From Microthyrium microscopicum (Eukaryota): a DNA stretch of 20,000 nt. The position numbers and the translations under genes are program-made. The notes beneath the pieces were generated by a model that did no database searches, had not been told where the DNA came from, and worked only from the letters and a program-made list of their open reading frames with translations. The DNA lies in NCBI GenBank assembly GCA_010405405.1, contig MU004231.1, forward strand, positions 2,762,751-2,782,750. Reading direction: 5' to 3'. Of the stretch, positions 1 to 20,000 are shown piece after piece. Each line of letters begins with the position of its first letter. Within the stretch, counting starts at the first letter, position 1.

Positions 1-187
1 TGAAGGCGGCTGCTTTGGCGGGTGTGTCGAGGGTCGATTTTCCTTCATATTTTGCGAAGAGGGGCTCGTTGAATAGTTTCACTAGGAAGGCGGTGTGGAT
101 TGGGTTGTCGGGGTCGATAAATGTTAGATATGTCCTAGGTGTGGAGAGGAGAAAGGGGGGGATTGGTTTGGAGGCCGGTTCTGTCAT
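1..187 (-). CDS. GNAT-family N-acetyltransferase (RimJ/RimL-like), N-terminal part; runs off the left edge of the window
   Basis: Not in the ORF track. Manual translation from ATG at 187 gives MTEPASKPIPPFLLSTPRTYLTFIDPDNPIHTAFLVKLFNEPLFAKYEGKSTLDTPAKAAAF..., open to position 1. The 'L.TPR.YL...H..FLV.L.N.P' start resembles fungal RimJ/RimL-type GNATs. Family call is by recognition only. Confidence 0.65.
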   Translation of the reverse strand, partial: MTEPASKPIPPFLLSTPRTYLTFIDPDNPIHTAFLVKLFNEPLFAKYEGKSTLDTPAKAAAF

Positions 188-395
188 GGTAGTGATTATC
201 GATGGTAGTGGCGTTGCCGTGTCTAGTTCTTAGGAGCTGGGGAGAATGCGAGTTATATCAACTTTCCAGCTTTATATGGGACGATACTTGTGTGGCCGAG
301 AGTTATACCGAGATTGTGGACGTAGAGCGATTGGGAGGGGGATGGCACCAGGGCTTGATCGTTATTCACAGGATATGTTACCTGAAAGTGACTTA

Positions 396-424
396 GAAAT
401 CCTTCGAAATCCTTCGAAATCCTT
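396..424. repeat. Short tandem repeat (GAAATCCTTC) x ~2.9
   Basis: Reads gaaatccttc gaaatccttc gaaatcctt, between the kelch gene stop and the GNAT start. Confidence 0.85.
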
Positions 425-497
425 TCTTTCGTTGGTCCTTCATGTAGTGCAAATCGTGCACGTTATTATTAGATATGTGGTGTGACGGTACCTTTAC

Positions 498-2738: not shown

Positions 2739-3798
2739 GCTCTATACATGACCAGATCACACTGTCGGCGAAGAGAATGCCAGAAAGCTGCGCAGGGTCA
2801 CTCAGAAGAAGTTGGCGTTCGGAAAGTGAGGACATGTCGAAGCCATCTCCAACGTGCAGAACGGGAGGCGCCATACTGCCGGGAAATCATAGGTAGCACA
2901 GTTAAGATAGACAAGGCAGGACCAGAAATTTGTCGGACTTCTGTGCTCTAAACGATTCGGTCTTCGCCGTGCAAGTTACACAAAAGCACCACCATCGGAG
3001 CAGCAATTGGCCTAGATTGCTTCACAGGGTGGTTCGTAACACTCGCTTAGAGAAGTGCCGTGGTAGTGTTCAACCTGTCCGTTCCACTGGAATGTGGTGT
3101 TAAGCGATGTACTTGCGTTATGCTTATAATACTACCAGGACTACCCAACTGGTGAAGAAGTTGAAGGCTTTAGCCGTTGTGCCTTCCATACCAAACAATA
3201 GGATTGTTGAGGCCACGTCTGATGGGGTAAACTTTTCTGATTAGCCTTGTACAAATATCTCTAACCACTTTTTACTGAATACGGATCTTGGCCGCCTTAC
3301 AATTACAACCTGAGTTGACTTGGAGCAAAGAGGCTTAGAGATGAGTGTGATGTTTCCGGTAGTCTTGTGTGAGGACATTAAACTTCGCCCCGTAAGCATC
3401 TTCGTCATCTTGATTCATAAGCACGAAGTGCTCGAGGTTTCAACATGGGATGTAATCTCCAAAGTAGCCAAGTGCCCGTCCCGTGGTAAGAATCCGTACT
3501 TGACACAGCAATTCTGCCATCGAAAGCCGCCCCTGTAGAGCGATGTACCCCTCTTCTCTCAGTTGCCACTAATTGCGCAGTATAACCTGCTGAAGAGACA
3601 ACCTGGATTACAGCTGTTGTGTGCGATGTAGTTCATGAGCAGTTCCTTGCCGAAATTAATAGGGTTGATAGCGTTATGACAAGTTCGATTAGGGGACATC
3701 CCAGTTAGATATATTTTGTCCTTGGGGAACCGAAGAATGAGCCTAACAGCCGGATGTTATAGCCATTGATTGGCTATGATACTGGATGGCAGGTCTAT

Positions 3799-5091
3799 TC
3801 ATGGACTCTGCAACAGTGGGACGGGTAGCAAACAGTCCAACTCATGCGCCAACTCTGCTATAGGTGCTGCTTCTAATTGTGGATCAAGTCGAGATGCGTT
3901 CTGAAGTAACTTTTCCCAACTTTCAATTCGGTGTAGCTCTAGTTCCTGAGAGCTGAGATCCAAGGCCACGTAGCTGGTATTCGATGGGATCCATTGTAAG
4001 TCCACGACAACGCCGTGCTTCACGCCAAGCTTAAATTCACCCTTCATAGGTTAATAAGGTTTTCTTATGGCACGCGGCAGAGAAGCACTTACCATGGCTT
4101 TGGGATTTATTTTCAACCAAAATTGCGGTGTTTGCAAATATCTCCAGCTGTCCGACTTGACAAAGGTTAGTAAACGAGTAAACGTGATACTTGCCGTGTA
4201 TACCTTGAGCTCTCCATAACCCTTCTCCACGCCCTCGATTGAGAGGCAACTGTCATCGACATCAATAACAGGACTATCTGTCGTGCTGACTTCGTGTTGC
4301 TGACGAAACTCTGCTTCTACGATCTGAGAAAACAGTTTCCCATCCATTCCAATATTGGTAACCGGGGACCTCACACTGTCTATGCCCTTCGCTTCAATCC
4401 ATCCTTTCGCTGGAGATCGCAAAAACCAGGATATTTGTCCGAGATTTTTTGAGTCAAGCAGAGCAGTCCCGTGATGAAGCGCACGTTTTCGGGCAATTTT
4501 GAATGCGGAACCAGAAACCTTAAACGGTGTCGCTTCGGATCCAGTATATCTTGTGACGTGTGTGTCGTCTGCGTCCACGAGTTGTGCAGATTTGCCTTGA
4601 TCCAAAACAATATCGTGCCTTTCATTCACGCGAGAACGTTCGATTCCTTGTCGTCGGAGAGCTCGAACAACCATCTCGGCGGAGGTGTCGCGAGTGAAAT
4701 CTTCAATATCGCAGGTCACGCTCCAATTGACATTTCCATGGTCGTGGAATACTGCTCCACCGCCAGATCTTCGACGAACAAAATCAAAGTCCATTCCATG
4801 TGGAAGCTTGCCTTCTCGGTATGCGTGCAGGTTGATCTCAAGCCATGGGTTCTGATTTCTGCCGATGATCACACAAGGTCTGTTGACGTAGAGAAAAAGA
4901 ACTCTTGTGCCTCTCGGCGCATTTTGAAAAATGTAATGTTCAATGGAAAGATTGAGAAATGGGTCATCAGAAAAAGATCTGAAAACAAGTCCAGACAGCT
5001 TTGTCTCACTAATTGATGACAGGGAGGAGCTATAGCGCACCCTCTGGCGCAAGGAGATCGTTTTCACATTCCGAAGTATCGATGGAAACAT
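3799..5091 (-). CDS. Lipoate-protein ligase A / lipoyltransferase (LplA; Aim22/Lip3-like), ~397 aa, 3 exons: 4204-5091, 4093-4155, 3799-4041
   Basis: Motifs DPFLNLSIE, IIGRNQNPW, RRRSGGGAVFHD, KVSGSA, LHHGT, DSVRSPVTN and W.YLQTPQF. Introns 4156-4203 (GTATAC..CTAAC..AAG) and 4042-4092 (GTAAGT..TTAAC..AAG) join the ORF 3799-4047 in frame. The Arg/Ser-rich N-terminus resembles a mitochondrial presequence. Confidence 0.93.
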
Positions 5092-5411
5092 CTCATCCTG
5101 CTTGCCGACCAGTAAAATGTTTGATTAAGAGACGTTGAAAAAAGTCAACGCGATTGACATTGAACTGGAACGGGATGTGCACGGGCTTAACGTGGCTCAT
5201 AAGCGCTAGCCAATCAGATCGAACCCTAGCCTTTTTTTCAGCCTTATTGACAAACGCATCTAACAGCCTCGAGAACCGCAGCCTCGCGATGCACCTTGGT
5301 CTAGAATCGGAGCATAAAGCGGTCAAATACGGTTATGAATCCAAAAGCTTTACATTATATTCAGGATATCTATCATTGGACTCATAGAGGATATCATTAG
5401 ATATCCTCCAA

Positions 5412-5873
5412 TCAAGAGGGAGGAGCTGCTGCTGGTGCTGGCGCAGCTGGAGATGGGGCTGATGCTACTCACGGATCATTAATACTCTTCAGTGACTTAG
5501 GTAATGTGGATGTAGAAGAGGCTCTTACCAGCGTCTGCGCCTGGTGCTTGTCCTTTTCCATGGCGCTTTCCCTTGCCATGCTTTCCTTTGCCGTGCTTCC
5601 GGTGTCTCTTGCCCTTGCCTTTGCCGTGTTTCTTGCCAGTGAAGCCGCCTGGTGGGCCACCAGCAGCTCCAGCGCCTGGAGCGCCGAGACCAGCAGGGAC
5701 AGTGGGGGTATCTTGACGCTTCTCGATGGTTTGGCTTGTCATTTCGTCCCGGGCAACAACGTTACCTACACAGTCGATCAGCCTTCCGATACAGCCTGTC
5801 AAGTTTAACCAGAGAACATACCAGCGATGACAGCTGAGGCCAAGATGGCGAGAAGGAATGATTTAGCAAGCAT
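5412..5873 (-). CDS. Small secreted Gly/Lys/His-rich protein, ~113 aa, 3 exons: 5822-5873, 5529-5765, 5412-5464
   Basis: Spliced translation: MLAKSFLLAILASAVIAGNVVARDEMTSQTIEKR-QDTPTVPAGLGAPGAGAAGGPPGGFTGKKHGKGKGKRHRKHGKGKHGKGKRHGKGQAPGADAASAPSPAAPAPAAAPPS*. Introns 5766-5821 (GTATGT..TAG) and 5465-5528 (GTAAGA..TAG) keep the frame (342 nt). Signal peptide followed by a propeptide ending in KR. Confidence 0.8.
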
Positions 5874-7057
5874 GTTGATGGTTTGAAATGACTGTGATGG
5901 AAATAAAAAAGAGTGACTGCGCTTGAAGGGAAACTTTTAACAGTTGCCGAGTCGTAAGCATACACTTTATACTATTTTTCTGCAAACTATGAACGTAACA
6001 ATTTCTCCCACTAACGATCAACTCCCGCAAAAGCTTTTGACAGCAGTCTGAATCTGCTGATCCCCATCTGGGGATGAAAACCCGTCGCCGGGATCTTTTG
6101 ATATGTTCCATTAACAACATATTAACTACAGATGCCTGCTAATGATGAAGCAAACCCTTTAAGCAGGCTGCCAGCTCAGTGATTGACGGGAGTAAGGTGG
6201 CTGCGTTTCAAAGTTCGTTCCGCCCCCCCTTTAAGCAAGGCATGGACATTCCGAATTCCTGGTATAAATTTAACAGGCCCTTACCAAAGTGCTCATTTCG
6301 TGCAGAAATAGGCCTGAGGACCTGCTTTATTGGAGCAAATGAAAGACTCTAGCCCTACGGGCCTTATGCCAAGTATCTATTTTAACCTATATACCACTCG
6401 AAAAGATAAATAACAGTCTGTGACTGGTGGGTCAACACTGGAAAAACTATATTACAACCGCCTACCTGTCCTCCGATCACCAAAACCCGGCTCTCATCAT
6501 GCACTGCAAACTATTGAGCTTAATAAAACTTTGGCTCGTGGCAGCTCTTGTACTGTTCAGGAAACTTTTCAGTTATATTAAATTCACAACCCTCTAAAGC
6601 GAATCTAAGCCTGTCTTCTAGACCAGAACCACAGGCGTCGGGATATAAAGACATAACAAGCTTTAATGAACGTTAGCTGTCTAATCAAAAATAGATCGCA
6701 CGAGACAATATCTAGTCCGACGAATTCTGGTTCAGCCTATGATATCAACGATACTATAGCTTTAGTATACAGTGTTCAACATCGTATCGTTAAGATGACT
6801 ACTATCAGCAGTAAAACAAGTACCCCAAAGATCTACGCTACAGTGCACATCTCTGTTCATGCTGAAGCTATATACTATTCAATAATATGATTTTGCGACC
6901 TGGGGAACATACTATTCGGAGTTCCCTACAGATAAATCCACCTGTTGAAACCCTGGCCATACACCTTTTGCTAAATCCAAATGCCTCCTGGATATGCTAA
7001 TCTCGGTTCAGATAAAGTGAAACACAAGAGAAAACACTAGATAACGCATAATTTCTG

Positions 7058-8020
7058 TCAAGCTTCTATCAGATCTGGCACCGGAGGTCCGACCCCTCGT
7101 AAAAGAACAATTGTGTTTCCGGTCTGTACAACATCCCCAAGCTTCTCTGAAAAGTCGACAAGTCGCCCACCTTCCACATGGAAGACTCGTAACCTCTCCT
7201 CCTCTCCAACGACCCGATTATTGATATTTTCAACCTGCAGTGCCTTAGCCGCCACATCCAAAACTCGGCCTACACTCCATTCCTTGGAATAGAAAAATTT
7301 GCCAGTGGGGTATTTGGCCTTTGTTGTATCCGCCGAGGCTTCGACATGCAAATATACGCGCTTGTCGACTGGCACTTTGGCATCACCTTTGGCAGCAGTC
7401 TTCAAGGCGTTGGTCGCAGCAAGATTTGAAGCTGCGGACTTTCTGGAGGTTGACTTTGATAGAATAGGAAGGTTGGTAGTGTTGGACATGGCGGCTTTCT
7501 TATTCAGACCCCACGACTTAAGCTTGGTCAGTGCTGCCATACCTTTTTCCTTCTGTGCCGATGAAAAGGTTGGCGGTCTTGCGCCCAGTGGTGTGAGTTT
7601 AGAGCAGCCATGGTCCTCTTTCATTCGGTGTTTTAAACAATATCTCCGGTTACAAGTTTGGCAATGCACTCCGGGTGTAAGTGGAGTATCTACCAATGTC
7701 TTGCAAGTTGTAGCGGCGCATTGCTTTTCATGATTTAAGATGTTGGGCTTTGGACTGCTGCTGGTGGAAGAAACGGTGCTTCGCCCTGTTCTCGCCTTTG
7801 CCCACGCGCCGGCTTTTGAGCATTTGTGGGAAGTCTCTAGTCGATGATCCAGACAGTATGTCCCATGGCAGGAATCGCAGCGGAATGGGAGAAAGTCCAG
7901 CTGGTTGCAGTACTCCATCTGGCAGTGCGCGCCAACCGCTTCAACATCTCCAACGGCCATGGCGGTGTAGCTTGTTCCTTCAGAGTTCTTGTCTGGGAGG
8001 TTGGAAGCGTTGAAGGCCAT
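7058..8020 (-). CDS. AN1-type zinc finger protein (Cuz1/ZFAND1-like): two AN1 fingers plus C-terminal ubiquitin-like domain, ~320 aa
   Basis: VGAHCQMEYCNQLDFLPFRCDSCHGTYCLDHRLETSHKC and CAATTC...HCQTCNRRYCLKHRMKEDHGC. The C-terminus WSVGRVLDVAAKALQVEN...VQTGNTIVLLRG is UBL-like. First ATG is at 8020; the ORF track starts at an upstream non-ATG codon. Confidence 0.92.
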   Translation of the reverse strand: MAFNASNLPDKNSEGTSYTAMAVGDVEAVGAHCQMEYCNQLDFLPFRCDSCHGTYCLDHRLETSHKCSKAGAWAKARTGRSTVSSTSSSPKPNILNHEKQCAATTCKTLVDTPLTPGVHCQTCNRRYCLKHRMKEDHGCSKLTPLGARPPTFSSAQKEKGMAALTKLKSWGLNKKAAMSNTTNLPILSKSTSRKSAASNLAATNALKTAAKGDAKVPVDKRVYLHVEASADTTKAKYPTGKFFYSKEWSVGRVLDVAAKALQVENINNRVVGEEERLRVFHVEGGRLVDFSEKLGDVVQTGNTIVLLRGVGPPVPDLIEA

Positions 8021-8225
8021 GGTAATGCTTTTGCAGCCCTTAAAAGGGCACACACGGTTGACGAACGTTGGCGTTAGGCTGACGAGAGGCGTCACTGTCG
8101 CGAAGGAAGAGTGATAATCAATGTAGAAGATGCTAGCAACGGCTACAACGGTCTAAGCCCGCACTGATCTAGCGCCAAACTTGGCCAAAGAAGGTGCGGG
8201 CCGAAAGCTTAGTCAGGTCTTACAG

Positions 8226-8523
8226 CCAATCAGCGATGGTTTATTGCTTCGACAAGGCTGAATTATCTTGATTGAATGTACATGGAATCTTGCGCTCTTT
8301 AACTATTACTATAGAATAAAATCTTATGTATTGAGTGTATGTGGAGCGTGGTGATCAGAAAATGACCAATCAGAGTCTCCGATAAGCGAAGCACGACCAA
8401 TTGTTCGCTTTCAGCTGTTATTCTACTTATGTTATGAACATCAGCTCCACATCTCTAACAAATGTCGAGACCTAGGCTTTTTCAATCCAAAGTTTAAGCC
8501 GGAGATGTGGGGAAGTAGCCAAT
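8226..8523 (+). promoter_or_regulatory. Cluster of four CCAAT boxes in the divergent promoter between the AN1 gene and the membrane protein gene
   Basis: CCAAT at 8226, 8366, 8397 and 8519, the first two in the extended RCCAATCAG context. Function is not shown by sequence alone. Confidence 0.35.
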
Positions 8524-8743
8524 GGTATCTGAGGAATGCCACATCTAACAATCCGAATCCTCAGGCCACCATGGACTGTCACACAAAGCTGCGGAATGCA
8601 TTGTCATAAAGTTGTTATGCATGTCTCATAGCTCGGGGCCCCATCTCAACCCATCCTCAACCTTCCTCCGAATATCCTCGATGTGACATCGATTTTGTTT
8701 TTACGTTTCTCACCCTCGACCACCTTATCGCTATCAGATCAGG

Positions 8744-9965
8744 ATGGCCGATAACAACCCCTCTAGCTTTGGCATGGGAAATCTGGGTCTTATTACGACT
8801 GTTTATATCGCCGAGATCCTCTTTACGTTTGCTGGAATAGCTCTTTACAACACTCTTGAGCTAATTGTACTGATTCTGGTCACCTTCAAGCGATACAATG
8901 GCATGTACTTTTGGTCATTGCTGCTGGCAACGGCGGGCATCATCCCATACACTCTATCTTTACTCTTCAAGTTCTTTGAGGTGATCAAAATCAACATGTT
9001 GACAATTGCATTTGTTGCTCTTGGCTGGCAAATGATGGTTACGGGACAGTCACTTGTCATGTACTCAAGGCTTCATCTGGTCACGCAAAACCGGAAGTAT
9101 ACTCAATATGTGCTTTATATGATCATTGCCAACTGGTTCATCAGTAATGTTCCAACCACGGTTTTCGTTTTTGGTGCCAGCAGTAACAATCCCGCACCGT
9201 GGTCCAAGATATATGCTGTCTGGGAGCGCCTGCAACTCTGTCTGTATTTTGTCCAGGAGTCCGTTATTTCCGGTCTCTACGTCTGGTCTATCATGGGCAT
9301 GCTATCAGACACCCACAGTCACGAAACCCATATACGTAAAATGGCGTTTTCATCCAGGAGACTTTCAATGGCAGACAAGTCGAAACGGGTACTAAAGCAT
9401 CTCATCTACGTCAACGTCATCATGGTCCTGCTCGACATTTCTTTGCTTATCACCGAATTCATTGGACATTATGAGATACAGGTTCTATATAAGGTTAGTT
9501 GTGGTTTCCAGCTTGGCGTTGCTCTCTCACATACTCTAGGGAGCTTTATACAGTGTAAAATTGAAGATGGAATTTTGGATCCTCAATCAGCTCACGGACA
9601 TTGCCTCCTCAAAATTGAGGCAGTCTCAAATGGAGTCTGGATTTTCGGGCGAAGTGTTCTCGCCAGTGGGGACAGTCCAGCCGCATAGCCCCTTAGCAAG
9701 CCCGTTTGCAAGCCGAATGTCAAAACCAGAAACCGAGGGTAGCGATTATATCACTTTTAAGAGCCCGTGGATGAATGCTGAGGGAGGCCACCGCAATACG
9801 CTAGTTCCTGAAGACTCCCATGGCCAGTCACATACCAGCTTGAAGACGGAAATGCTCTCTCTAGATCCTCTGGCTCCCAATGGCGTCGATATAGGTATGA
9901 TCGCACATGAAAGGGAACAGTCTTCGCAATCTGGCAAGCAAAAGCTCTCTTTGGATCCAACCTGA
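8744..9965 (+). CDS. Uncharacterised fungal multi-pass integral membrane protein, ~391 aa, 2 exons: 8744-9493, 9540-9965
   Basis: Six to seven hydrophobic segments. Motifs TFKRYNGMYFWSL, MVTGQSLVMYSRLHLV and QESVISGLY. After intron 9494-9539 (GTTAGT..TAG) comes GALYSVKLKMEFWILNQL, typical of a common ascomycete membrane family. Polar C-terminal tail. Confidence 0.88.
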
Positions 9966-9972
9966 TAATCTA

Positions 9973-10548
9973 TTAAATCTTGGGTAGCGACGTCAGAACA
10001 AAGATTGCACGACACTCTGCTAGAGTATCTCCTTTGCTATTCTCCAATCGCGCATTCAGGAACTTTTTCCGGGCTTCTTGCTTGACTGGTAATACCACCA
10101 CACAAACGGTCTGAGGAGTCAAGACCGGACGGCGATAAATGGTCGTCAGCTCGACTGTCATGGCAGCGCCCTTGCTTGGAGCCTCGACCTTCTCTTTTGC
10201 CAGCTTAATCTGTCGTGCCACGAATTGGGAACCGGCGACGCCCATGACTTCATCAAACAGCAAAGCTATTAAACCGCCATGACAGACGGCCGGATAGCCG
10301 TTGAGACCAGGCTCCAAGGTGACTAGACAGCGGACCTCCTCGATCAACTTGTTTGGTGCGGGCTTCTTTATGAAGGACAGACATCTAGAGATGGTTTCAT
10401 GCGTGTTGAGAATTCTGCCAAACAACTCGTCCTCCGTTGATGGCTTTGGAGTCCTGGATCCTGTGGGAATGACTTGCCATTCTGGGTCGCCGATCCATTT
10501 GTTGCACCACGATAGGGACCGGAAGTACTCGAGATCAGGTTCCGGCAT
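9973..10548 (-). CDS. Hotdog-fold thioesterase (PaaI/THEM4-like), 191 aa
   Basis: GLNGYPAVCHGGLIALLFDEVMG motif, then MTVELTTIYRRPVLTP and a C-terminal beta-strand pattern. Intronless. Confidence 0.9.
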   Translation of the reverse strand: MPEPDLEYFRSLSWCNKWIGDPEWQVIPTGSRTPKPSTEDELFGRILNTHETISRCLSFIKKPAPNKLIEEVRCLVTLEPGLNGYPAVCHGGLIALLFDEVMGVAGSQFVARQIKLAKEKVEAPSKGAAMTVELTTIYRRPVLTPQTVCVVVLPVKQEARKKFLNARLENSKGDTLAECRAIFVLTSLPKI

Positions 10549-11121
10549 GACTGAAAGCCTGAAATTGATGTCCAGGTAGGAATGAAGTAAACTTTAACAC
10601 GAGACTTAATTGGAAAATCTTCCCTCCAAGTTTCCCTTGAGATACCGATGGTAGTCTTTGAAGTGTAAGCGGTACAAGAAAATCCACCCGTACCTAGAGT
10701 CGATCTTACCTCGGCATAACAGGTACTCTTGGCTCAGATAAGAGTACTTTCCATCTAATCTGATCGAAGAAGATGCGACTCCAAAACGCGTTCCCTCAAA
10801 TATCTTTTCTCTCTCTGATGCAACGACCGCACTTACAAATGGCTCCTTTGAAGTAACCTTCATCATAATAAACTCTTGCACAATCACATATCCTCCATCA
10901 AGCGATTTCGACGATCCGGGTCGCGCTTGCGCAGGTACCACTCGCTGATATGGCTCTTAGTTTTGGCATGCCGAACTCCTCATGTCACTCTGCTCACGCC
11001 AACGATTATGTGTCAAGAGAGTCCAGGATCTATCATGAGTTTAGTTCGATGCGTACAACTTCTTTGACCGTTTTCTGGCATTCCATGAGAAGGTTCTTAT
11101 TTATGTTATTTACGTGTTTAC

Positions 11122-12117
11122 CTAGTCTGTCAATACCACAAGCTTCCCTCCTGCTTTGTTGGAATCCATTAACTCATGAGCCTGCACGATCTCATCAATC
11201 CTGAACACCTTGCCAATCGGCACCTTGATATCTCCGGACTCAATATCCTTCAGGAGTTGCGTGAGTGGAGTCTTTTGGAAATCCGTTATGCCTCCAGAGT
11301 ATGCCGTCAGCTTGACGGCATGAGGAATCAATTCCATCGGATTCACTCCATCCATCGTCCACTTGTTGCCGACGATGCCAGTCATACACACTGTACCACC
11401 CTGTTTGGCGCATTTTAGAGAGTCTTCGAGTGTAGTGACCCCGATCAGCTCCAGCACCTTGTCGACACCACCACTTGTCGCTGCCTTGACATCATCCGCG
11501 ATGCTACCATTGTCGACAAAGACTGTGTCCACGCCATTGGCCTTGAGCAGGTCCGATTGCGCTTCACGGCGTGTAGTAGCTGAAACGCGAGCACCCAGCT
11601 TATGGGCTATATTAGCTGCAGTCAAGCCAACGGAAGTAGTCCCGCCTCTGATAAGCAAATGCTCGCCTTTCTTCAGATCGAGAGCCGTGAAAAGAGAACC
11701 CCAAGCAGTCTGGAACATTTCCGGAATGGCACCAACAGTCTCCCAAGGAAGGGTCGTCTCGATCTTCTGGACATTTTCTGCCGAGACACAGGTGTATTGT
11801 GCATAACCACCGTCAAAAGCTCGACCCAGACCACCCATGACTGTAGCGACTTTCTGGCCCTTGTTGAATTCGCCGCCAGGAGCGCTTTCAATTTCTCCAA
11901 CTGCTTCGATTCCTAAAACTCTGGGAAACTTGACATCGGGAGAGGCACCTTGCCGTGTGAACATTTCTGATCGATTGATACCGAAAGCTCTCACTCGGAT
12001 GAGGACTTGGCGTGCTGCTGGGGTTGGGATTGGAATATTCTCGAGTTTGAGAACCTCAGGACCTCCAGCCTCATAGATTCTGACCGCTTTCATAAGAGCC
12101 ATTTTGATGCTTGTCAT
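11122..12117 (-). CDS. Zinc-independent MDR-superfamily NADPH:quinone oxidoreductase-like protein, ~323-331 aa (start may be the MKAVRI Met at 12093)
   Basis: [57 protein letters not shown] and [16 protein letters not shown]. No Zn-ligand Cys/His pattern. Intronless. Confidence 0.93.
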
Positions 12118-12728
12118 GAAGTAATCGGTACAAATAAGTGTTCGGAGGAAGATAGTATGTTATCTGATCTGTTGTTGGTTTAGTTCCAAACAGTGCCTGC
12201 CAAGCGGACTTTATAGTGTAATTACCTGGCATCAAAAAAGGGTTGGCGGAATCTATTCCTTACCCGGGTAAAGAGTAGGTTGTCAGCGTTGGTAATCGAC
12301 GTCTCTTGTATAATATGTCGGTTTCAGCGAATTAGCCTTACAGAAACGACCTTAGCTGCAGGATGGAGAACCTCAAAATTGACTCAACCATTAGGCTGCG
12401 ACTGTTGATAAGCAGGTATGCATATGTCGGGAGCCAAAAGATACAACGTTTTGAGAGTCAGCGAGGCTGGAATTATTCAGCCGGCCTTGTGTATGAAAAA
12501 TGGCACTAATCTCCGGAGTGGAGTGTATTCCGCGATTGCTAAAAAAACAGAGCTCCGCTTGATAACACCAACCACAAATCTGAAGCTCAACATGAGCGAT
12601 AATTTTAACTGCAAGAGTCGTCACGCTACTCTATTGCTTCAAGCCTTCTAGTAAATTACGAAGCTATTTTGCGGTTCACATAACTCTTTTGATGTAGAGA
12701 GCAGTGAAACGACTTATACCGTATTTCT

Positions 12729-12866
12729 TATTAAAGGTGCGATGTGAAGGGATGGCAGCCGCATAATGGATTATGTAATCAGATGGGGTTAAGACCTACT
12801 ACCTAACGGTAGGACTCTATCGCTTCTAATCTAACTTTGTTATCCTAAATATTTCCTTTATTAATA
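12729..12866 (+). repeat. Probable 5' LTR (138 bp) of the copia element
   Basis: Starts TATTAA and ends TTAATA, the RIP-mutated form of TGTTGA...TCAACA copia termini. Immediately followed by a PBS-like GGTTATAA. No second copy is visible in the window to confirm it. Confidence 0.55.
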
Positions 12867-12880
12867 GGTTATAATAACCC
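12867..12880 (+). other. Putative primer-binding site (half-tRNA-iMet type, GGTTATGA... after de-RIP)
   Basis: GGTTATAATAACCC directly after the LTR end. The first 8 nt match GGTTATGA(GCCC) with one G>A; the rest does not match exactly. Confidence 0.45.
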
Positions 12881-13162
12881 TTTTGAGCCTCTTCTATTAA
12901 TAAATTATTAGATTTATATTTAATCTATTAATTTTCTATTAGCTACTACTAATTTATTATAAAAATAAGCTTGCTAATTATCTACCTAGCTCTAATTATT
13001 AAAACTTAACCCTATAAATTAATAGCTTATTAACTAATATTAATTTTTATTAAAGTTCTATTATCTATTAATAGTTTGCCTTATTTTATTAGTAAGTAAC
13101 TATCGTAAGTAATTATACCCTATTATCTTTACTTTATCTTATTCCCTTACTACTCTACTATT

Positions 13163-16100
13163 ATATTAATATTTAGAGTTAACTAGAGTAGTATACCTAA
13201 GCTATTAGCTAATAGTAATAACTTTATTAAATAGTATATATCCTAAATATATATTCTTAAGTATAATAAGTACTTTAATATTATTAAGAAAAAGCCTACT
13301 AATCTTAATAACGTTATTAATAATAATATTAATACTAAAGCTATAATAATACTACTTAGTAGCATATATAATAAATACTAGCTAATAATTACTAGCTTTA
13401 AGTTTGCTACTAACGCCTAGTAATAGCTAGTAGCAAAATATAATTAAGATACTAATAATAATACTATCTTTTAATTTTGTACGCTTACTAGCCTACGTTA
13501 TAAAGATAGTAAAAACTTAATAGACTACCTTAATAACTTCTATTAAATCTAGACTTACTTATATAAGAAATGTATTACCTTATTATAGCTTGTTACTAAA
13601 GCTATAAAAGCAATTTTTAAAAGCAATAAGGTAAAAGGCTTATTCTTTCTAATAATACTACTAGATACTATAAACAACGTTATTAATAACTTTAATATAA
13701 AGAATATCTTAAAGTTTACTACTATTAAGCTAAAGATCCTTAATATTACTAAATGCTACTTTTTTAACTTTATTTAGAGTATAGCGTACTATAGTAAGAA
13801 GACGCTTAAAAGCTTATTATTTAGTAAGTAAAAAGTCTATACCTAGTACTAAAGTAAAGGTTTTACTTTTATTAGCTACTTTTACTTAGATTATAAATAT
13901 TTTACTAAGTATAAGAAAAAGAAAGACGTCTTTAATAATAGTAAATTAAAGACCCTTGCTAATAAATCTAAAGCTTCTAGTAAGATAAAAAAACTATTAG
14001 AAAATTGCTAAAAGAAGCCTAGAGCCTTAGTAAGGCTTACTAAGGATTCTAATATTAAAAAGGTCTATAGGAACGACTCTAAAAATAATATCTAGATTGT
14101 TACTACCTTTAGCGTAGTAATATATATTAACGTAAATAGTAAACGCGTATATATAAGTTTTCTTCCTAGTAATAAAATTAAAATACTTTATCTTATTAAA
14201 CTAATAATAATTCTACTAAAAGCTACTACCCTAGCTATATACCTTTATATAACGCTATAAATTTTTAATATAGGCGCATTTAGATATATATTTAGATTTA
14301 TTAAAGATTTTAATAGTATAAGAAAGTATACTAGTATAGTACGTATTATTAATAGTATTAAACTACTAATCTAAGAAATTAAAAATATCTTACTATATTA
14401 TTATTTACTTAATAGGTTAATATCCTTTATTAAACTAACTAATACTATCTATAGTTATAAATTTATTAATACTAGATTACTAAGCTAGACTTACGTCTAT
14501 AAAAACTTTTGCCTAATAGTAGAGAATAATAACCTATTTATTTTCTTTCTTACTAGAATAGTAGTTTAGATAAAGTATAAGGCTAAATCTCTATAGATCT
14601 AGCTTTAGTAAGAGACGTATACTACTATATAAGTAGTAATATAACTATTCTTATTATACTAGGAATTTTATAAGGCTATTAAATATTTAAATATTAGTAA
14701 TGCTAAACGCCTATATAGTAACTTTAAAGCTATCCTAAAAATACTATATAAGTTTTACTATAAAGCGTATATTACTATAAACTTAAAGCATATAATACTA
14801 AAATTGTTACTAGAGTAACTAAGCTCTAAACTATTTAACTTTATCTATTCTAATCTATTTAAATAACTTCTAAAGTCTATTAGTAGTAACTAGTACTTCT
14901 TTATCTTTATTAATAACTATATATAATACTCCTAAATCTTTTTTATTAAGAAAAAGTCTAATATTATAATAATTATAGCTTACTTTATTACTTAAGTAAA
15001 AACCTAATTTAGTATTAATATCCTAGTATTTATTAGTAATAATAATAGTAAATATATTAATATAAAAACTATAACTATAATTAAGGATAAAGGAATTAAA
15101 GTTATCTATTTACTAACTTACTTCTATAAAAGTAATAGCTTACTAGAATAATTTATCTAAATAGTCTAGAATACTACTAGAATAATGCTATTAGATAATA
15201 TTTTACTAACTCTCTAGGGCAAAGCTATTATAATAGTAAACTACCTTTATAATAGATAACCTTATACCTTACTACTAATAAAGATAACGCTATATAAAGT
15301 ACTATATAGAGAGAAACTAAAGATCTTATATCTTTATTTATTTAAATAGAAAGTCTATGCTTATATGCTAAAAGAGACTTATGCTTTAGTAGCTAAATTT
15401 TTAAACTATATAGAATAAAGCTACCTTATTAGCTATACTAAGAGTTCTAAGATTTTCTAAATTTTTATTCTAACCTATAGCAAAGTTATTAAAATATAAT
15501 AACTAAAGTTTGCCTCCTATAACCTAGATAACTAACTAAATAGTAAATTTAAATTTAATCTAGGCTTAGGAAAGCTAACTACCGCTAGATCCTTACTAAA
15601 ACTATTAATAAATAAAATATTTAATAATTTAGATTAATTAATACTATCCTTAGTACTAACCTTAGTACTACTAAGTTTACTAACTACTATCTTATTACTA
15701 CTTATAACTCTCTAGCTTCTACCTATAGATATAGCAATAAGAAGCTTAGTAATAGTAAGACGTATTTTAGTAACTACTAGCGTATTATAATAATAGATAA
15801 CTTATACTACGAGACCTTCTACTACTTTAATAACTCTCTTAGCCCCTATTATAACTTATAGTAGCTACTAGCTTAGTTCTATCTTATCTTTTTAAGGACG
15901 TAGCACTACTAGCTATAGTTTAATTAAATATACTAAAATAGTACTAATTAATAATAATATACCTAATAAAGATTAGGACATTATTATTACTATAATAATA
16001 GCTAGTTTACTAAATATACTTAGCTACTTTAACACTACTAGAAAATTCCTATATTAGAATAACTAGAAAGTAGTAATAGACTAAAAGATTCTTTTATATA

Positions 16101-17542
16101 AAGAAAATAGTACTTAGACTTTTATTAAGAAATCTAATATTTCTTTAAAAATAAATATTATTAGCTACTAATAGGTCTTTAATATTAAGATCCTTACTAA
16201 TAATATTAAAAGATATAAAGTAAGACTTATTATTTAAAGCTTCTTATAAATCCTTAGAATTAACTTTAATAAGACTTACTCTTTTATTACCTACTATAAT
16301 AGCCTATGCCTCTTAATAGCACTTATGTATTATAGATAGATTATATATATAATTAATTTTGATACTATATATCTTAATTCTTTACTTAAATAAATAATAT
16401 ATATAAAACTACTACTAGGCTTTAACTTAGCTAATAAGATCTTACTACTTAATAAAGCTATCTATAGCCTTAGATAATTTAGTAGATACTAGAATAGTTT
16501 ATTAACTAATAAACTACTAAAGATTAGCTTCTAGTAAGTAGAGTTTAATCTATATATCTTCTTTAAATAAGAAATCTATATTAGTGTCTATATTAATAAC
16601 GTACTTATTATTAGCAAAAAAAAGTAAGTTTATAATTTTAAAATCGCTACTATAAAGCGTTTTAAATATAAAGACCTTAGTAAAATAAAGCTTCTTCTTA
16701 GCATTAAAATAAAAGTAATAACTAACGCTATTATATTATTATAAGAACGCTACTATAATATAATTCTTTAATATTTCTAAATAGAAAACTATATACTACG
16801 TTAGACTTTAATAAATTTAAACACCTACTTAGAAGTAAGCTTATTATAATCTACTAATAAGTTTTTTATTAAAGAGTACTAGTTTATTATTAGATTATTA
16901 AACTACCTTATTACTAATATAAGACCTAATCTTACCTTTATAATCTCTATACTTAGAAAATTTAACGCTAACCCTTTATAAGAATATTAGCTTTTAATAA
17001 AATAAGTCCTTAAATACGTTAAAGCTATAAGATTATTAAAACTATATATTTACTACTTAGCAATAGATATCCCTATTTAAATTAATCTTTTTAGTAACAC
17101 TTCCTAAGGTTTCTATCTTATTACTATAAAGTCTACTAGTAGATATATTATCTAGATAAATAGCTCTATAATTGCTTAGTTATTAAAATAATAAAGCTAT
17201 ATTACTAAATCTACTACTAAGATAGAATATATAGTAAGCTCTTACGCCGCTATATATCTTATCTAGATAAGAAAAGTATTAATATAACTATATATTAATA
17301 TTACGTATAAACTCTTAATTAATAACTAAGTAATACTAAATATATTACTTAATAATAAGATTAATATATAAATAAAATATATTATAATATATTTCTATTT
17401 TATATATAACTATTTCCTTTAAGGTAGCTATAAATTAGAGTAGGTATCTATTAAGGAAAATATTACTAACGTTTATACTAAAGCTCTTCTACTACTATTT
17501 CTTACTTTTTTTAAAATAATAATAAGCTTATGCCCTTATTAA
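13163..17542 (+). pseudogene. Copia gag-pol polyprotein fossil (~1460 codons, one reading frame)
   Basis: All motifs lie in frame +2 after restoring G/C. Gag PKL..DGDNF.EW (~13196-13235). Zinc-knuckle-like C..C...H....C (~13838-13900). Protease W-I-F-D-T-G-A-S-R-H-M (taa att ttt aat ata ggc gca ttt aga tat ata, 14258). Integrase H..GH/C..C, IHSDL (~14843), SDNGGEY (15035), SNG..ER, LWGEA. RT RYKARLV.QGF.Q.PGIDF.ETYSP (16211), LNKAIYGLRQSG, YVDD (tat att aat aac, 16589-16600). RNaseH SDASW, KST.EAEY, DNQAA, RTKHI, ADV.TKAL (~17465). The start codon position is a guess. Confidence 0.93.
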
Positions 17543-17909
17543 AAAGAAAATAGTTAAAAATACTCTTTTAAAAACTTAAAATTACTACGCTTACTAGCGT
17601 GCTTATTACTAAATTAGTTAGATTAAGTCTCTTACTTATAATATTAATAATTAAAGTTTTATTAACTCGTTTCGTTATAATGTTAACTCTTAATTAACTT
17701 AAGATTTACCCTTCTAGAATCTTTACTACTTAAAAAATAGTAAACCTTTATCTATTTAACTTTTTAATTTAACTACTTCCTTTATCTTTTTTATTTACTA
17801 CTCTTCTACTAAATATTTTTCTACCTTTACTATTCTAAGCTACCCTCTTATAATTTAATTAATCTAAATACTTCTATATATACTATATATATTATTACCT
17901 ACTATTAGA

Positions 17910-19273
17910 ATATCTTTAAACAACAAAATCCTTACTACTATTAAGGAAGTAAATAATAACTTACTTAACTAGTCTAACGCTAAAGTCTTACTTATAGCTT
18001 ATATCTAGAATAGTCCTAAAGCTATTAACTCTACTACTACTAAATCTAGAAGTAAACATATCTATAAAAAGACCCTAAAGGCTAATAATACTTAGCGTTA
18101 TAAATACTACTATAATTAATCTTTAGTCCTAGAAATTAATAATATAAACATTAAGTCTAAGCCTTATAATAACAATTATAACTTTAGCTTTAACATTAAT
18201 AATAAAGTCTTCCTCTTAGACTCTAATAGTAAGTTTAAATACATATATACTAAGAGCTATTATAGTACTACTACCTATTTCTAGGTAAATATAAATACTA
18301 CTAGTCTCTTAACTACTACTACTAATTAACGTACTACTATACGCTATATTCTTAAATTATTTCTTAATATAACTAATCTTATTATTATTAGAAATCTAAA
18401 GGTATATAGTATATTAATTACGTTTAATACCTATTATATTCCTAGCGCTATCTTAGTCTTTATTATAATTATTTATAACTACGTTATAACCTATAGCTAT
18501 ATAATTAACTTTTAGAAGAAGTATAATAATATTAAGTACGTCTATAATAACTTTACTAAGAAACTTAAGAACTAGACTTATTATAAGAACCTCTATAATT
18601 ATTTCTTAACTTATAAAGATATTATTTATATTAAAACTTTTAGTATTATAAAATACTTTAAAGACTCTAAGGCTATTAAATTATCTAATAACTTTATATA
18701 ATACTACGCTAAACTAAAGTATAAGCTTTTTATTACTAACTTTAAAGTTCCTTATTTAACTAATTATAAACTTACTATTTATATTAAACTAATTAACGAA
18801 CGTTAGTTAATAAATATTAACTTTAGTAGTACTAGCTAAACTAATGCTATTATTATTACTAAAGCTACTATAAACTAAGCTACTACTAATACTACTACTA
18901 TTACTACCTCTATTATAGTTACTACTATAGCTCTACTTACTATAGTCCTAGCTCTAGCTACTACTATTAAATCTAGCTTTATTTAGTTGCCTTAACTTAG
19001 CTTAGATCCTAGCTATGCTACTACTAATATAATACTCTAAGTTACTTATACTACGTAATCTATTAACTTATCCTAGATTATTAGAGATAAGTAGATCTTT
19101 AACTACGTAGCTCTATTAGTTACTAATACTAAACTAGTATCTATTCTTTATAAGCTTAACTCTATTATTAAGAAGAATAAAGACCTAAAATTCTTTATCT
19201 TTTAGGGAAAACTCTAAAAAAAGAAGAAGTTAGGTTAGATCTTTCTAATTAAAGTACTTATTAAGATTATTAG
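17910..19273 (+). pseudogene. RIP-degraded second ORF of unknown function downstream of copia pol (~435-455 codons)
   Basis: Frame +3 from ATA (probable ATG) at 17910 reads as codon-like sequence. I counted about 19 stops up to 19217, all TAA/TAG and explainable as RIP of Gln/Trp/Arg codons. Many act/aat/aac/att codons would derive from GCT/GAT/GAC/GTT. The ORF ends at 19217 or runs on to the insertion at 19273. No domain recognised. Confidence 0.65.
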
Positions 19274-19498
19274 TATAACGAGCTGCGGAACTCAGAGCAA
19301 GCAGATAATTAGATTGTATTCTAGAATCTACGAATAGGAGAGAGAGAAGAAGATCTAGAAGAGCTATAGATCTATAAGGGATATAAGTCCGCTCGGCAGA
19401 TCCTTAGGCGCGCTAACCCCCTTAGGTCTAGCGCATAATCTTATAATAAGATCTCTCTCATAACACTACTATAAAGCCTATAAAGAGGAATTATTATA
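19274..19498 (-). repeat. Probable 3' LTR (~225 bp) of a minus-strand Ty3/gypsy element
   Basis: On the minus strand it begins TATAAT (RIP of TGTAAT) 3 nt after a polypurine tract and ends CGTTATA (RIP of CGTTACA). It contains a CT-rich tract and AATACA. An alternative boundary at 19465 (TGTTAT on minus) is possible. Confidence 0.55.
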
Positions 19499-19501
19499 TA
19501 A

Positions 19502-19512
19502 CCCCCTCCTTT
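19502..19512 (-). other. Polypurine tract AAAGGAGGGGG of the gypsy element
   Basis: The plus strand reads ccccctccttt, next to the LTR-like terminus and downstream (on minus) of a chromodomain tail. Confidence 0.7.
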
Positions 19513-19570
19513 AGTATAGCTCTTTAGGCTATAAATTGCTAATTATAACTACTTTCTTAATCTATTTCAT

Positions 19571-19620
19571 TCTAATCTAGTCTAGTCTAGTCTAGTCTAG
19601 TCTAGTCTAGTCTAGTCTAA
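19571..19620. repeat. Pentanucleotide microsatellite (TCTAG)8 flanked by TCTAA units, 10 units in total
   Basis: Read directly. Lies in the gypsy 3' untranslated region. Confidence 0.97.
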
Positions 19621-20000
19621 TAAACTTTTAGTAATAAATAATATTTTAATCCTTCTATAGTATAATACTAACCTTACTAGTTATTTAGAGTATCTTAACC
19701 TCTAGCCTATTAAGGCAACTATTAAGAAGTATTAATAAACCCTAAGATATTCTTAGAATACTCTAGTTCTTAAGTCTTAATAGTCTAGTAGTTAGTAATT
19801 CTATTAGTATAAAGGAATTAGTAGTATAATTATTTACTTCTCCTAATTAGTAAGAACGCTATTAAAGTTATAATTAATACTATCGCTAGTAGGCTTTAGT
19901 ATTAATAATATCTAGGTAGGATATAAGCCTAGCTTACTAAGATACTAAGTATAAAACTTAGTAATAAGCTCTAGTACGTTCTTAGTAGCTATTTAATTAT

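What the first reader, a model, noticed from the sequence alone, without database searches (positions are those of the whole stretch)
17543..19273. Copia retrotransposon with an unexpected long extra ORF after RNase H
Seen: pol ends at 17542, but no PPT plus copy of the 5' LTR follows. After a ~370-bp spacer, frame +3 stays coding-like for ~435-455 codons in the same orientation. It has about 4% stops, all TAA/TAG, which looks low for such TA-rich DNA, and no evident frameshift. ORF finders miss it because RIP removed the start codons. Established: canonical Ty1/copia elements end with PPT-LTR shortly after RNase H; extra 3' ORFs are known mainly from plant Sireviruses (env-like). Inference: restoring G/C suggests an acidic N-terminal part (e.g. 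..EIDD.DVES...DDDYDFGFDIDGEVFL..), a central globular-looking part with aromatic residues (..IDFWKKY.D..Y...DF.KKL.NW..) and an Ala/Pro/Thr-rich linker near 18850-18970. I see no clear signal peptide and no domain I recognise. It could be an undescribed accessory or cargo gene of a fungal copia lineage, for example one involved in targeting or anti-silencing, or a captured host gene.
Basis: partly seen in the sequence, partly recalled or inferred. Interest (0 to 1): 0.8.

Follow-up and report, generated by a model that had tools for sequence, protein, structure and literature searches.

The report
Dead unidentified gene beside RIP-killed copia
Just after a mutation-riddled copia retrotransposon in a fungal genome lie the remains of a second gene of about 410 codons with no known relatives, and the data cannot show whether the transposon carried it or it is only a neighbouring relic.

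Summary
Window 12865-19277 is one block mutated to saturation by repeat-induced point mutation (RIP): about 21% GC, with CpA and TpG almost gone. It holds a full-length Ty1/copia gag-pol in frame +2 that really ends at 17542.

About 215 bp further on, frame +3 is coding-like for about 408 codons (17760-18983). Stops make up 3.4% of codons there, against 7-30% in the other five frames, and 0 of 2000 Markov simulations reached so low a value. There is no frameshift and no tandem repeat. A codon model trained on the copia favours the + strand.

What the gene was stays open. I found no Pfam, PDB or sequence relative, including 0 hits among 1.84 billion representative proteins. RIP also hides the copia's own integrase from Pfam, so only a strongly conserved enzyme is unlikely.

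The block ends at about 19277, where an unrelated high-copy repeat begins. The same sample's contigs hold no other copy at 80% likeness or more, so linkage to the copia could not be tested.

Odds: neighbouring relic of another repeat about 0.45, true copia accessory ORF about 0.3. Either way it is dead today.

The parts
12865..13261 (+). RIP-mutated leader upstream of the copia gag. This is where a 5' LTR, PBS and UTR would sit, but no LTR was demonstrated.
   Evidence: CA and TG dinucleotides are present up to about 12843 and nearly absent afterwards. There is no frame periodicity, with stops at 9-21% in all six frames. No downstream counterpart was found.
13262..17542 (+). Ty1/copia gag-pol relic in frame +2, full length but with about 6.5% stop codons. 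Weak gag match at 13265-13558, integrase at 14822-15436, RT-RNase H at 16070-17530, stop at 17540-17542.
   Evidence: Pfam RVT_2 E 2.4e-21, and Retrotran_gag_2 E 0.005-0.025, which is below the curated cut-off. BLASTP to P0003 gives 115 bits for RT-RH, reaching residue 1321 of 1325, and 66.6 bits for integrase. Stops: 102 of 1558 codons.
17541..17550 (+). 10-nt purine run (polypurine-tract-like) overlapping the pol stop.
   Evidence: One of only three + strand purine runs of 10 nt or more in 12867-19277.
17543..17759 (+). Pyrimidine-rich, non-coding-like spacer.
   Evidence: Frame +3 has 9 stops in its first 72 codons counted from 17544. Stops are 5.6-25% across the frames. No similarity to the 5' leader or to the tail.
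17760..18983 (+). The finding: RIP-inactivated relic of a gene of about 408 codons, in frame +3, of unknown family.
   Evidence: 14 stops in 408 codons (3.4%) against 6.9-29.7% in the other frames; 0 of 2000 simulations were as extreme. Frame +3 is best in all sliding windows. Codon-position composition is strongly periodic. A codon model favours +3 over the codon-aligned antisense frame -1 by 59.9 log units. No homologue found.
18984..19277 (+). Tail with a weak or absent coding signal. It holds a 14-nt purine run at 19216-19229.
   Evidence: Frame +3 has 9 stops in 98 codons, and the purine run is listed. The coding log-odds fall to 2-5. No similarity to the spacer or to the 5' leader.
19278..20000 (.). 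Start of an unrelated high-copy repeat that bounds the block. It is not part of the finding.
   Evidence: Summed contig depth in run X2 is 64375 (19258-19511) and about 11500 (19512-20000), against 322.8 for single copy. Loose ends lie 'before' 19276, 19278 and 19338, and the unique contig stops at 19315. No Pfam hit in six frames.

Best explanation
**What it is.** 17760-18983 is the dead remnant of a protein-coding gene of about 410 codons on the + strand. It once belonged to repeated DNA and was destroyed by repeat-induced point mutation (RIP). C-to-T and G-to-A changes at CpA/TpG turned Gln and Trp codons into TAA/TAG and erased ATG codons. It makes no product today.

**Most likely origin.** It is a fast-evolving, non-enzymatic gene of a second, unrelated repeat, for example a gag-type or other structural ORF of another mobile element. 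That repeat abuts a copia relic which has lost its 3' LTR. This would be an ordinary mosaic of TE relics in an AT-rich RIP block, later bounded or interrupted by a high-copy repeat at about 19277.

**Shown:** the coding nature, the frame, RIP, the complete pol, the absence of an LTR pair and the high-copy boundary.

**Inferred:** the strand (from a codon model), the non-enzymatic nature, and above all independence from the copia.
For: **RIP signature.** CpA is at 0.08-0.09 and TpG at 0.07-0.16 of expectation, and TpA is at 1.5. All 21 stops in frame +3 are TAA or TAG.

**Coding register.** Established.

**Strand.** The codon model gives +59.9 log units for +3 over -1. Held-out copia blocks gave +21.8 to +33.3.

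**No LTR pair.**
- None links the 5' leader to anything after pol. The scores of 51 and 74 compare with nulls and controls of 46-65.
- None flanks the ORF itself (score 46, controls 37-52).
- The copia therefore appears as an LTR-less relic.

**Composition.** GC skew changes at the pol end, from about -0.2 to about -0.4.

**No conserved enzyme.**
- phmmer found 0 hits among 1,835,955,588 proteins.
- The equally mutated copia RT and integrase still score 115 and 66.6 bits against a distant relative.
- The copia's gag is barely detectable at 14.5-16.7 bits.
- The ORF therefore behaves like a gag-type, fast-evolving gene.

**No precedent found.** My literature searches found no fungal copia with a 3' ORF.
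Against: - Pol is complete to its last codons, and the next coding signal starts only about 215 bp later on the same strand. For a random breakpoint or insertion this is a coincidence of a few percent.
- About 215 bp is little room for the copia's 3' end plus another element's LTR and leader.
- Copia and ORF are both single copy at 80% likeness or more, while the neighbouring repeat is high copy.
- Copia and ORF share a similar dinucleotide profile that differs from the neighbour's. One co-mutated unit would explain this more simply.
- A 14-nt purine run lies near the end of the block, where a polypurine tract of a longer element would be.
- No second element was actually identified. No LTR, PBS or domain was found for it.
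Confidence: 0.45

Rival explanations
1. The ORF is a genuine third gene of this copia lineage, placed between pol and the polypurine tract and 3' LTR. This is the layout of plant Sireviruses and of fungal gypsy elements with extra ORFs. The element would run from about 12865 to an LTR starting near 19230. That LTR would be cut after about 47 bp by the nested high-copy repeat, with the rest lying beyond the window.
For: - Same strand.
- It starts about 215 bp after a complete pol.
- No LTR lies between pol and the ORF.
- The ORF ends about 230 bp before a 14-nt purine run at 19216-19229, one of only three such runs in 6.4 kb.
- The whole 6.4 kb is uniformly saturated by RIP, with a sharp left edge about 400 bp upstream of gag.
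- The whole block is single copy.
- The 7-mer TAGGTTA sits both at the left edge (12865) and 1 nt after the purine run (19231). It occurs 3 times in the RIP block.
Against: - The sequences after the shared 7-mer do not align. The 48 nt after the purine run find no better match at the 5' leader than elsewhere (scores 32-37, all noise).
- No second copy shows the linkage.
- GC skew shifts at the pol end.
- I found no precedent for a fungal copia with a 3' ORF. Searches. Donnart et al. 2017, PMC5445492, section 10 and supplements 1 and 3 as I read them, describe a single large ORF for fungal GalEa copias.
- None of the 11 metagenome copia loci fetched resembles the ORF.
Confidence: 0.3
2. The ORF is a former cellular or orphan gene, not a transposon gene. 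It was duplicated together with, or next to, the copia by a segmental duplication, and RIP then destroyed it.
For: - Single copy now.
- No transposon domain in any frame.
- RIP mutates both copies of a duplication, so no intact parent need survive. This fits 0 hits even though proteins of this or a very close species are in the searched collections. A flanking gene is 95% identical to a named protein.
Against: - A conserved cellular gene would probably still have detectable orthologues in other fungi. The copia RT and integrase remained detectable after the same mutation load.
- The left RIP edge coincides with the copia's own 5' end. That fits duplication by transposition rather than a segmental duplication.
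Confidence: 0.12
3. The true reading is the minus strand (frame -1, the codon-aligned antisense of +3). The stretch would then be the start of the internal region of a minus-strand element whose LTR is the high-copy repeat at 19278 and onward.
For: - Frame -1 also has few stops (6.4%).
- A purine/pyrimidine codon model cannot separate -1 from +3. The difference is 5-11 log units and its sign depends on the training set.
- The stretch directly abuts the high-copy repeat.
Against: - The 64-codon model favours +3 by 59.9, and all three sub-segments are positive.
- Frame -1 would have 0% Pro, 14% Ser and G at 3.4 times C in the second codon position, unlike the copia control.
- The stretch is single copy while the repeat is high copy.
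- The -1 translation has no homologue.
Confidence: 0.06
4. The stretch was never coding. The periodicity would be a by-product of composition or of a cryptic repeat.
For: The DNA is very AT-rich and of low complexity. A short (CTA)n lies at 18880-18907.
Against: - 0 of 2000 dinucleotide-matched simulations give such frame contrast.
- One register holds over 1.2 kb.
- No tandem array explains it.
- Non-coding RIP DNA next door shows no periodicity, with stops at 9.6-15.4% in all frames.
Confidence: 0.02

Closest known systems
RIP-degraded LTR-retrotransposon relics in AT-rich blocks of Pezizomycotina genomes (general knowledge, recalled). Copia relics with lost or altered LTRs are discussed in Donnart et al. 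2017, PMC5445492 (passages read).
   Same: Saturating loss of CpA/TpG, 21% GC, only TAA/TAG stops, a sharp edge against unmutated genes, nested or abutting repeats, and missing LTRs.
   Different: The second coding relic has no assignable family, and it follows a complete pol on the same strand at short distance.
Sirevirus-type Ty1/copia elements of plants, with an env-like ORF between pol and the 3' LTR
   Same: A long extra ORF downstream of pol on the same strand in a copia-type element, and purine runs at both ends of the extra region.
   Different: The host is a fungus. No 3' LTR is seen, no env-like features can be read from the mutated sequence, and the linkage is seen in a single copy only. 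RT clade membership was not tested.
Fungal gypsy elements with an additional ORF, for example brtn of BcGypsy1 (Boty) in Botrytis cinerea (bioRxiv 10.1101/2021.04.13.439636, passages read). Also LTR elements of bdelloid rotifers that captured extra ORFs (PMC5408684, seen only in a search listing).
   Same: They are precedents for LTR retrotransposons that carry lineage-specific ORFs without known domains.
   Different: Those are gypsy or rotifer elements, and their ORFs recur in many copies. Here the element is a copia and no second copy exists to show recurrence.
Fungal GalEa (FunCo8) copias, 5.4-7.0 kb with one large ORF (PMC5445492, section 10 and supplement 3 read).
   Same: A fungal copia with a total length near 6-6.4 kb.
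   Different: The window's RT has Y-I-N-N (from YxDD) where fungal GalEa has QTDD, so it is not GalEa. GalEa is described with a single ORF.

Membership tests
Ty1/copia LTR retrotransposon (upstream element, 12865-17542) | RVT_2-type reverse transcriptase | tested here: met
   Pfam RVT_2, E 2.4e-21, 76.9 bits (cut-off 31.6), nt 16160-16789.
Ty1/copia LTR retrotransposon (upstream element, 12865-17542) | Integrase upstream of RT-RNase H within one polyprotein | tested here: met
   BLASTP to copia polyprotein P0003: integrase at residues 653-857 (66.6 bits) and RT-RH at residues 1069-1555 (115 bits), ending 4 aa before the subject's end.
Ty1/copia LTR retrotransposon (upstream element, 12865-17542) | Copia-type gag | tested here: inconclusive
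   Retrotran_gag_2 at E 0.025 and 0.0053, with 14.5 and 16.7 bits, below the cut-off of 27.
Ty1/copia LTR retrotransposon (upstream element, 12865-17542) | Pair of long terminal repeats | tested here: not met
   Transition-tolerant Smith-Waterman alignments of 12650-12950, 12838-13300 and 12650-12866 against 17400-20000 or 12900-20000 stay within nulls and controls. A 3' LTR beyond the window is not excluded.
Ty1/copia LTR retrotransposon (upstream element, 12865-17542) | PBS after the 5' LTR and polypurine tract before the 3' LTR | tested here: inconclusive
   Purine runs lie at 17541-17550 and 19216-19229. The FunCo1 PBS motif from PMC5445492 matches only with 2 mismatches at 13067, among 24 such matches in the window.
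Copia with a 3' accessory ORF (Sirevirus-like architecture) | ORF lies between pol and the polypurine tract and 3' LTR of the same element | tested here: inconclusive
   The ORF follows pol on the same strand, but no 3' LTR is visible because the block is cut at about 19277 by a high-copy repeat.
Copia with a 3' accessory ORF (Sirevirus-like architecture) | The ORF recurs in other copies or relatives of the element | tested here: inconclusive
   No other copy at 80% likeness or more in the same sample's contigs. 0 of 11 metagenome copia loci resemble the ORF. No viral-contig relative. No whole genome is held.
Copia with a 3' accessory ORF (Sirevirus-like architecture) | Env-like features (signal peptide, transmembrane segment, coiled coil) | not testable with these tools
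   RIP converts Pro, Ser, Ala and Thr codons into Leu, Phe, Val and Ile codons, so apparent hydrophobic stretches in the translation cannot be trusted.
Fungal GalEa (FunCo8) copia | QTDD in place of YVDD in the RT | tested here: not met
   The window has Y-I-N-N aligned to the YVDD of P0003. The motif definition comes from PMC5445492, section 10.
Ty3/gypsy-type gag (Retrotrans_gag, zinc knuckle) for the extra ORF | Pfam gag domain or a CX2CX4HX4C knuckle | tested here: inconclusive
   No Pfam family at E up to 1-10 in the whole stretch or in segments. No knuckle-like pattern allowing Y for Cys/His. The same test also fails on the copia's own gag, and Pfam misses the copia's own integrase, so both tests are insensitive here.
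RIP-mutated repeat | CpA/TpG depletion with TpA excess, restricted to formerly repeated DNA | tested here: met
   Observed/expected values: CA 0.08-0.09, TG 0.07-0.16 and TA 1.47-1.54 in 12867-19273, against CA 1.11, TG 1.17 and TA 0.72 in 1-12700.

The most novel reading that the evidence does not exclude
A Dothideomycete Ty1/copia lineage carried a third gene of about 410 codons, with no detectable family, between pol and its polypurine tract and 3' LTR. It would be a fungal counterpart of the plant Sirevirus layout. This window preserves its only, RIP-killed, copy in this genome.
Probability: 0.3. Interest if true: 0.55.

Novelty: new member of a known kind. Interest (0 to 1): 0.3.

Why it matters
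**If the ORF belonged to the copia.**
- It would be the first fungal copia I could find in print with an accessory gene (searches).
- It would point to intact relatives in fungi with weak RIP, where the gene's role could be studied. Targeting, silencing evasion and an env-like function are the possibilities.

**If it is a neighbouring relic, which is somewhat more likely.**
- It is an ordinary piece of a RIP-degraded repeat mosaic with no present function.

**Practical lessons.**
- Stop-density periodicity can reveal dead genes that ORF finders miss in RIP-mutated DNA.
- After saturating RIP, Pfam and phmmer recover only the most conserved domains.

Tried and rejected
- **Earlier findings of this scan.** Nothing for this genome, for look-alike stretches, or by words.
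- **Homology of frame +3.**
  - Pfam on the whole stretch and on five segments gave nothing.
  - PDB gave one E=2 match and otherwise nothing.
  - The exhaustive phmmer search gave 0 hits.
- **Homology of frame -1.** Pfam, PDB and the word-indexed search (8000 candidates scored, none at E 0.1 or better) gave nothing.
- **Duplicated copia part.** BLASTP of the ORF against the copia's own polyprotein had a best E of 4.9, so it is not one.
- **Protein atlas.** I dropped the step.
- **Contig collections.**
  - Metagenome contigs, searched with a copia alignment, gave 11 copia loci. All are unmutated and CpG-poor, and none is similar to the ORF (best E 2.8).
  - Viral contigs gave none.
- **LTR searches.** All were at noise level: 5' flank or leader against everything downstream, the 48 nt after the second purine run against the block, and spacer against tail.
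- **PBS motif of FunCo1 copias.** Only 2-mismatch matches, so not diagnostic.
- **tRNA genes and Rfam families** in 12000-20000: none relevant.
- **Zinc-knuckle pattern.** Absent, but the control on the copia's own gag also failed.
- **Run X5 (organism B).**
  - It holds a 0.09 share of the sampled words.
  - The longest pieces listed include four that are 100% identical to 12400-19315, at depth 2.5-3.2; 2076 further pieces are not shown.
  - 81% of what was laid runs on into unlike sequence. I draw no conclusion about a relative or a habitat from it.
- **Contig joint 15509 to 18632** in organism A (table 5c). The window's own 15432-15504 and 18571-18638 are weakly alike, so the joint is probably an alignment artefact of AT-rich DNA. 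I gave it no weight.
- **Steps not run.**
  - Structure prediction, because about half the residues are altered by RIP and no alignment exists.
  - A purine/pyrimidine-degenerate pattern scan of public contigs.

Full report
**Setting**

The first 12.7 kb of the window is ordinary fungal DNA at 43-50% GC. From about 12.9 kb to the end the GC content falls to 20-29%.

One flanking gene, 4051-5091 on the minus strand, encodes a lipoate-protein ligase. It is 95% identical to a protein that a source names as Microthyrium microscopicum, and the next best hit is 58%. The window is therefore from that Dothideomycete or a very close relative.

In 12867-19273, CpA and TpG are at 0.07-0.16 of expectation and TpA is at about 1.5. 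The left part of the window shows 1.11, 1.17 and 0.72 for the same dinucleotides. This is the signature of repeat-induced point mutation (RIP; mechanism recalled from general knowledge), here close to saturation. No ORF of 80 aa or more is called anywhere beyond 12117.

**The copia**

- The frame +2 translation of 12866-17542, with X at stops, matches Pfam RVT_2 at E 2.4e-21 (nt 16160-16789). It matches the copia-type gag weakly.
- Against an intact 1325-aa copia polyprotein (P0003) it aligns over integrase (66.6 bits) and over RT-RNase H (115 bits).
- The second alignment ends 4 residues before the subject's C-terminus.
- The RT has Y-I-N-N where P0003 has YVDD. This is not the QTDD of fungal GalEa copias (PMC5445492, section 10).
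- Calibration: Pfam does not detect this copia's own integrase at E up to 5. Negative Pfam results on this DNA therefore mean little.

**The observation**

*Stop density.* In 17911-19273, frame +3 has 21 stops in 453 codons, all TAA or TAG. The other frames have 6.4-29.5%. The low-stop zone is 17760-18983, with 14 stops in 408 codons (3.4%).

*Test against chance.* In 2000 Markov simulations with the same dinucleotide content, no frame fell below 6.1% or rose above 21.4%. The observed extremes are 3.4% and 29.7%.

*Controls next door.* RIP-mutated DNA at 19278-20000 and at 12867-13261 shows no such contrast between frames.

*One register, no repeat.*
- Codon-position composition is strongly periodic: A is 55% at position 1 and T is 54% at position 3.
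- One register is best in every sliding window from 17630 to 18980.
- No tandem repeat explains the pattern.

The stretch is therefore a real, decayed coding sequence without a frameshift.

*Flanks.* Before it lies a non-coding-like, pyrimidine-rich spacer of about 215 bp. After it lies a tail of about 290 bp with a weak signal.

**Strand**

- Frame -1 is the codon-aligned antisense of +3 and also has few stops.
- A purine/pyrimidine codon model, which RIP cannot distort, fixes the register but not the strand.
- A 64-codon model trained on the RIP-mutated copia prefers +3 by 59.9 log units. Held-out copia blocks of similar size prefer their true strand by 21.8-33.3.
- Frame -1 would also give a protein with no proline and 14% serine.
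- I take the + strand as likely, at roughly 0.9. The model rests on one element.

**What the gene was**

The + frame gave no match in three kinds of search:
- No Pfam family in any of six frames, or in five overlapping segments of +3.
- No PDB relative.
- 0 hits at E 0.001 or better for +3 among 1,835,955,588 representative proteins read in full by phmmer.

Other checks:
- Frame -1 gave nothing in the word-indexed search.
- The ORF does not resemble the copia's own proteins.

The copia's RT and integrase carry the same mutation load and are still found. A strongly conserved enzyme such as a transposase, RT, integrase or helicase is therefore unlikely.

The copia's gag is almost invisible after RIP. 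A fast-evolving structural or accessory protein would thus escape every search I could run.

**Is it part of the copia?**

This is the key question and the tools could not settle it.

*Other copies.*
- No whole genome is held.
- I laid the contigs of three runs of one sample (coded organism A) on 12400-20000 at 80% likeness.
- 12400-19315 appears as one contig at single-copy depth, with only scattered short extra matches.
- From about 19276-19278 the summed depth jumps about 35- to 200-fold, and many contigs have loose ends there.
- The block is therefore bounded on the right by an unrelated high-copy repeat, and no second copy exists to test linkage.
- These runs may be the source of the assembly, so they are not independent.

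*LTRs.*
- Transition-tolerant alignments found no counterpart of the 5' flank or leader anywhere after pol.
- No repeat pair flanks the ORF.
- The 48 nt after the second purine run have no match at the 5' leader.
- A roughly 106-bp piece of that flank has one other copy in the genome. The meaning of this is unknown.

*For one unit.*
- Same strand.
- A complete pol followed at short distance by the ORF.
- Uniform RIP saturation, with a left edge about 400 bp upstream of gag.
- Both parts are single copy.
- Their dinucleotide profiles are similar to each other and unlike the neighbouring repeat.
- A 14-nt purine run at 19216-19229 is one of three runs of 10 nt or more in the block. Another overlaps the pol stop.

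*Against one unit.*
- No LTR evidence.
- GC skew shifts at the pol end.
- I found no precedent in print. Searches. Donnart et al. 2017: passages, section 10 and supplements 1 and 3 read. Extra ORFs are reported for a Botrytis gypsy element in bioRxiv 10.1101/2021.04.13.439636 (passages read).
- None of the 11 metagenome copia loci resembles the ORF. Those loci are distant, unmutated copias.

**Verdict**

The interpretation cannot be decided.

My odds:

| Reading | Odds |
|---|---|
| Relic of a non-enzymatic gene of another repeat, abutting an LTR-less copia | about 0.45 |
| True accessory ORF of the copia | about 0.3 |
| Duplicated cellular or orphan gene | about 0.12 |
| Minus-strand reading tied to the neighbouring repeat | about 0.06 |
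| Not coding | about 0.02 |

In every case the sequence is dead today. Its interest lies only in what intact relatives elsewhere might show.

Noticed in passing
window 19278-20000: A high-copy repeat starts at about 19276-19278. Summed contig depth is about 35-200 times single copy, and many contigs have loose ends at 19276, 19278 and 19338. Its first roughly 200 bp are only lightly RIP-mutated (about 40% GC) and the rest is 26-29% GC. Other copies often carry C or G where the window has T or A. No Pfam hit in six frames. It may be an LTR or another repeat end.
   Followed up: partly
window 19571-19619: A (TCTAG)n microsatellite of 9.8 copies lies inside the high-copy repeat.
   Followed up: no
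window 12762-12867: The unmutated flank just left of the RIP edge has one other contig copy in the same sample, with 3 differences and a depth about 1.6 times single copy in run X2. What this short repeat is remains unknown. It is not a tRNA gene or an Rfam family.
   Followed up: partly
window 12843-12866: The transition from unmutated DNA to RIP-saturated DNA is very sharp, taking less than about 25 bp. It lies about 750 bp from the nearest long host ORF (11122-12117, minus strand).
   Followed up: no
window 15509 / 18632: In all three runs of organism A, one contig lies on the window up to 15509 and again from 18632, with 8 other letters between (table 5c). The window's own 15432-15504 and 18571-18638 are weakly alike. 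It is probably an alignment artefact, but a deleted second copy is not excluded.
   Followed up: partly
window 4051-5091 (minus strand): A lipoate-protein ligase A gene, 95% identical to a protein named as Microthyrium microscopicum. The next best hit is 58%.
   Followed up: no
window 16110-16127: Another contig of the same sample lies on the RT region with several small insertions, at a depth about 2.5 times single copy in run X2 (table 4). Other copia-like RT sequences therefore exist in the genome, although none matches this element over any length at 80% or more.
   Followed up: no
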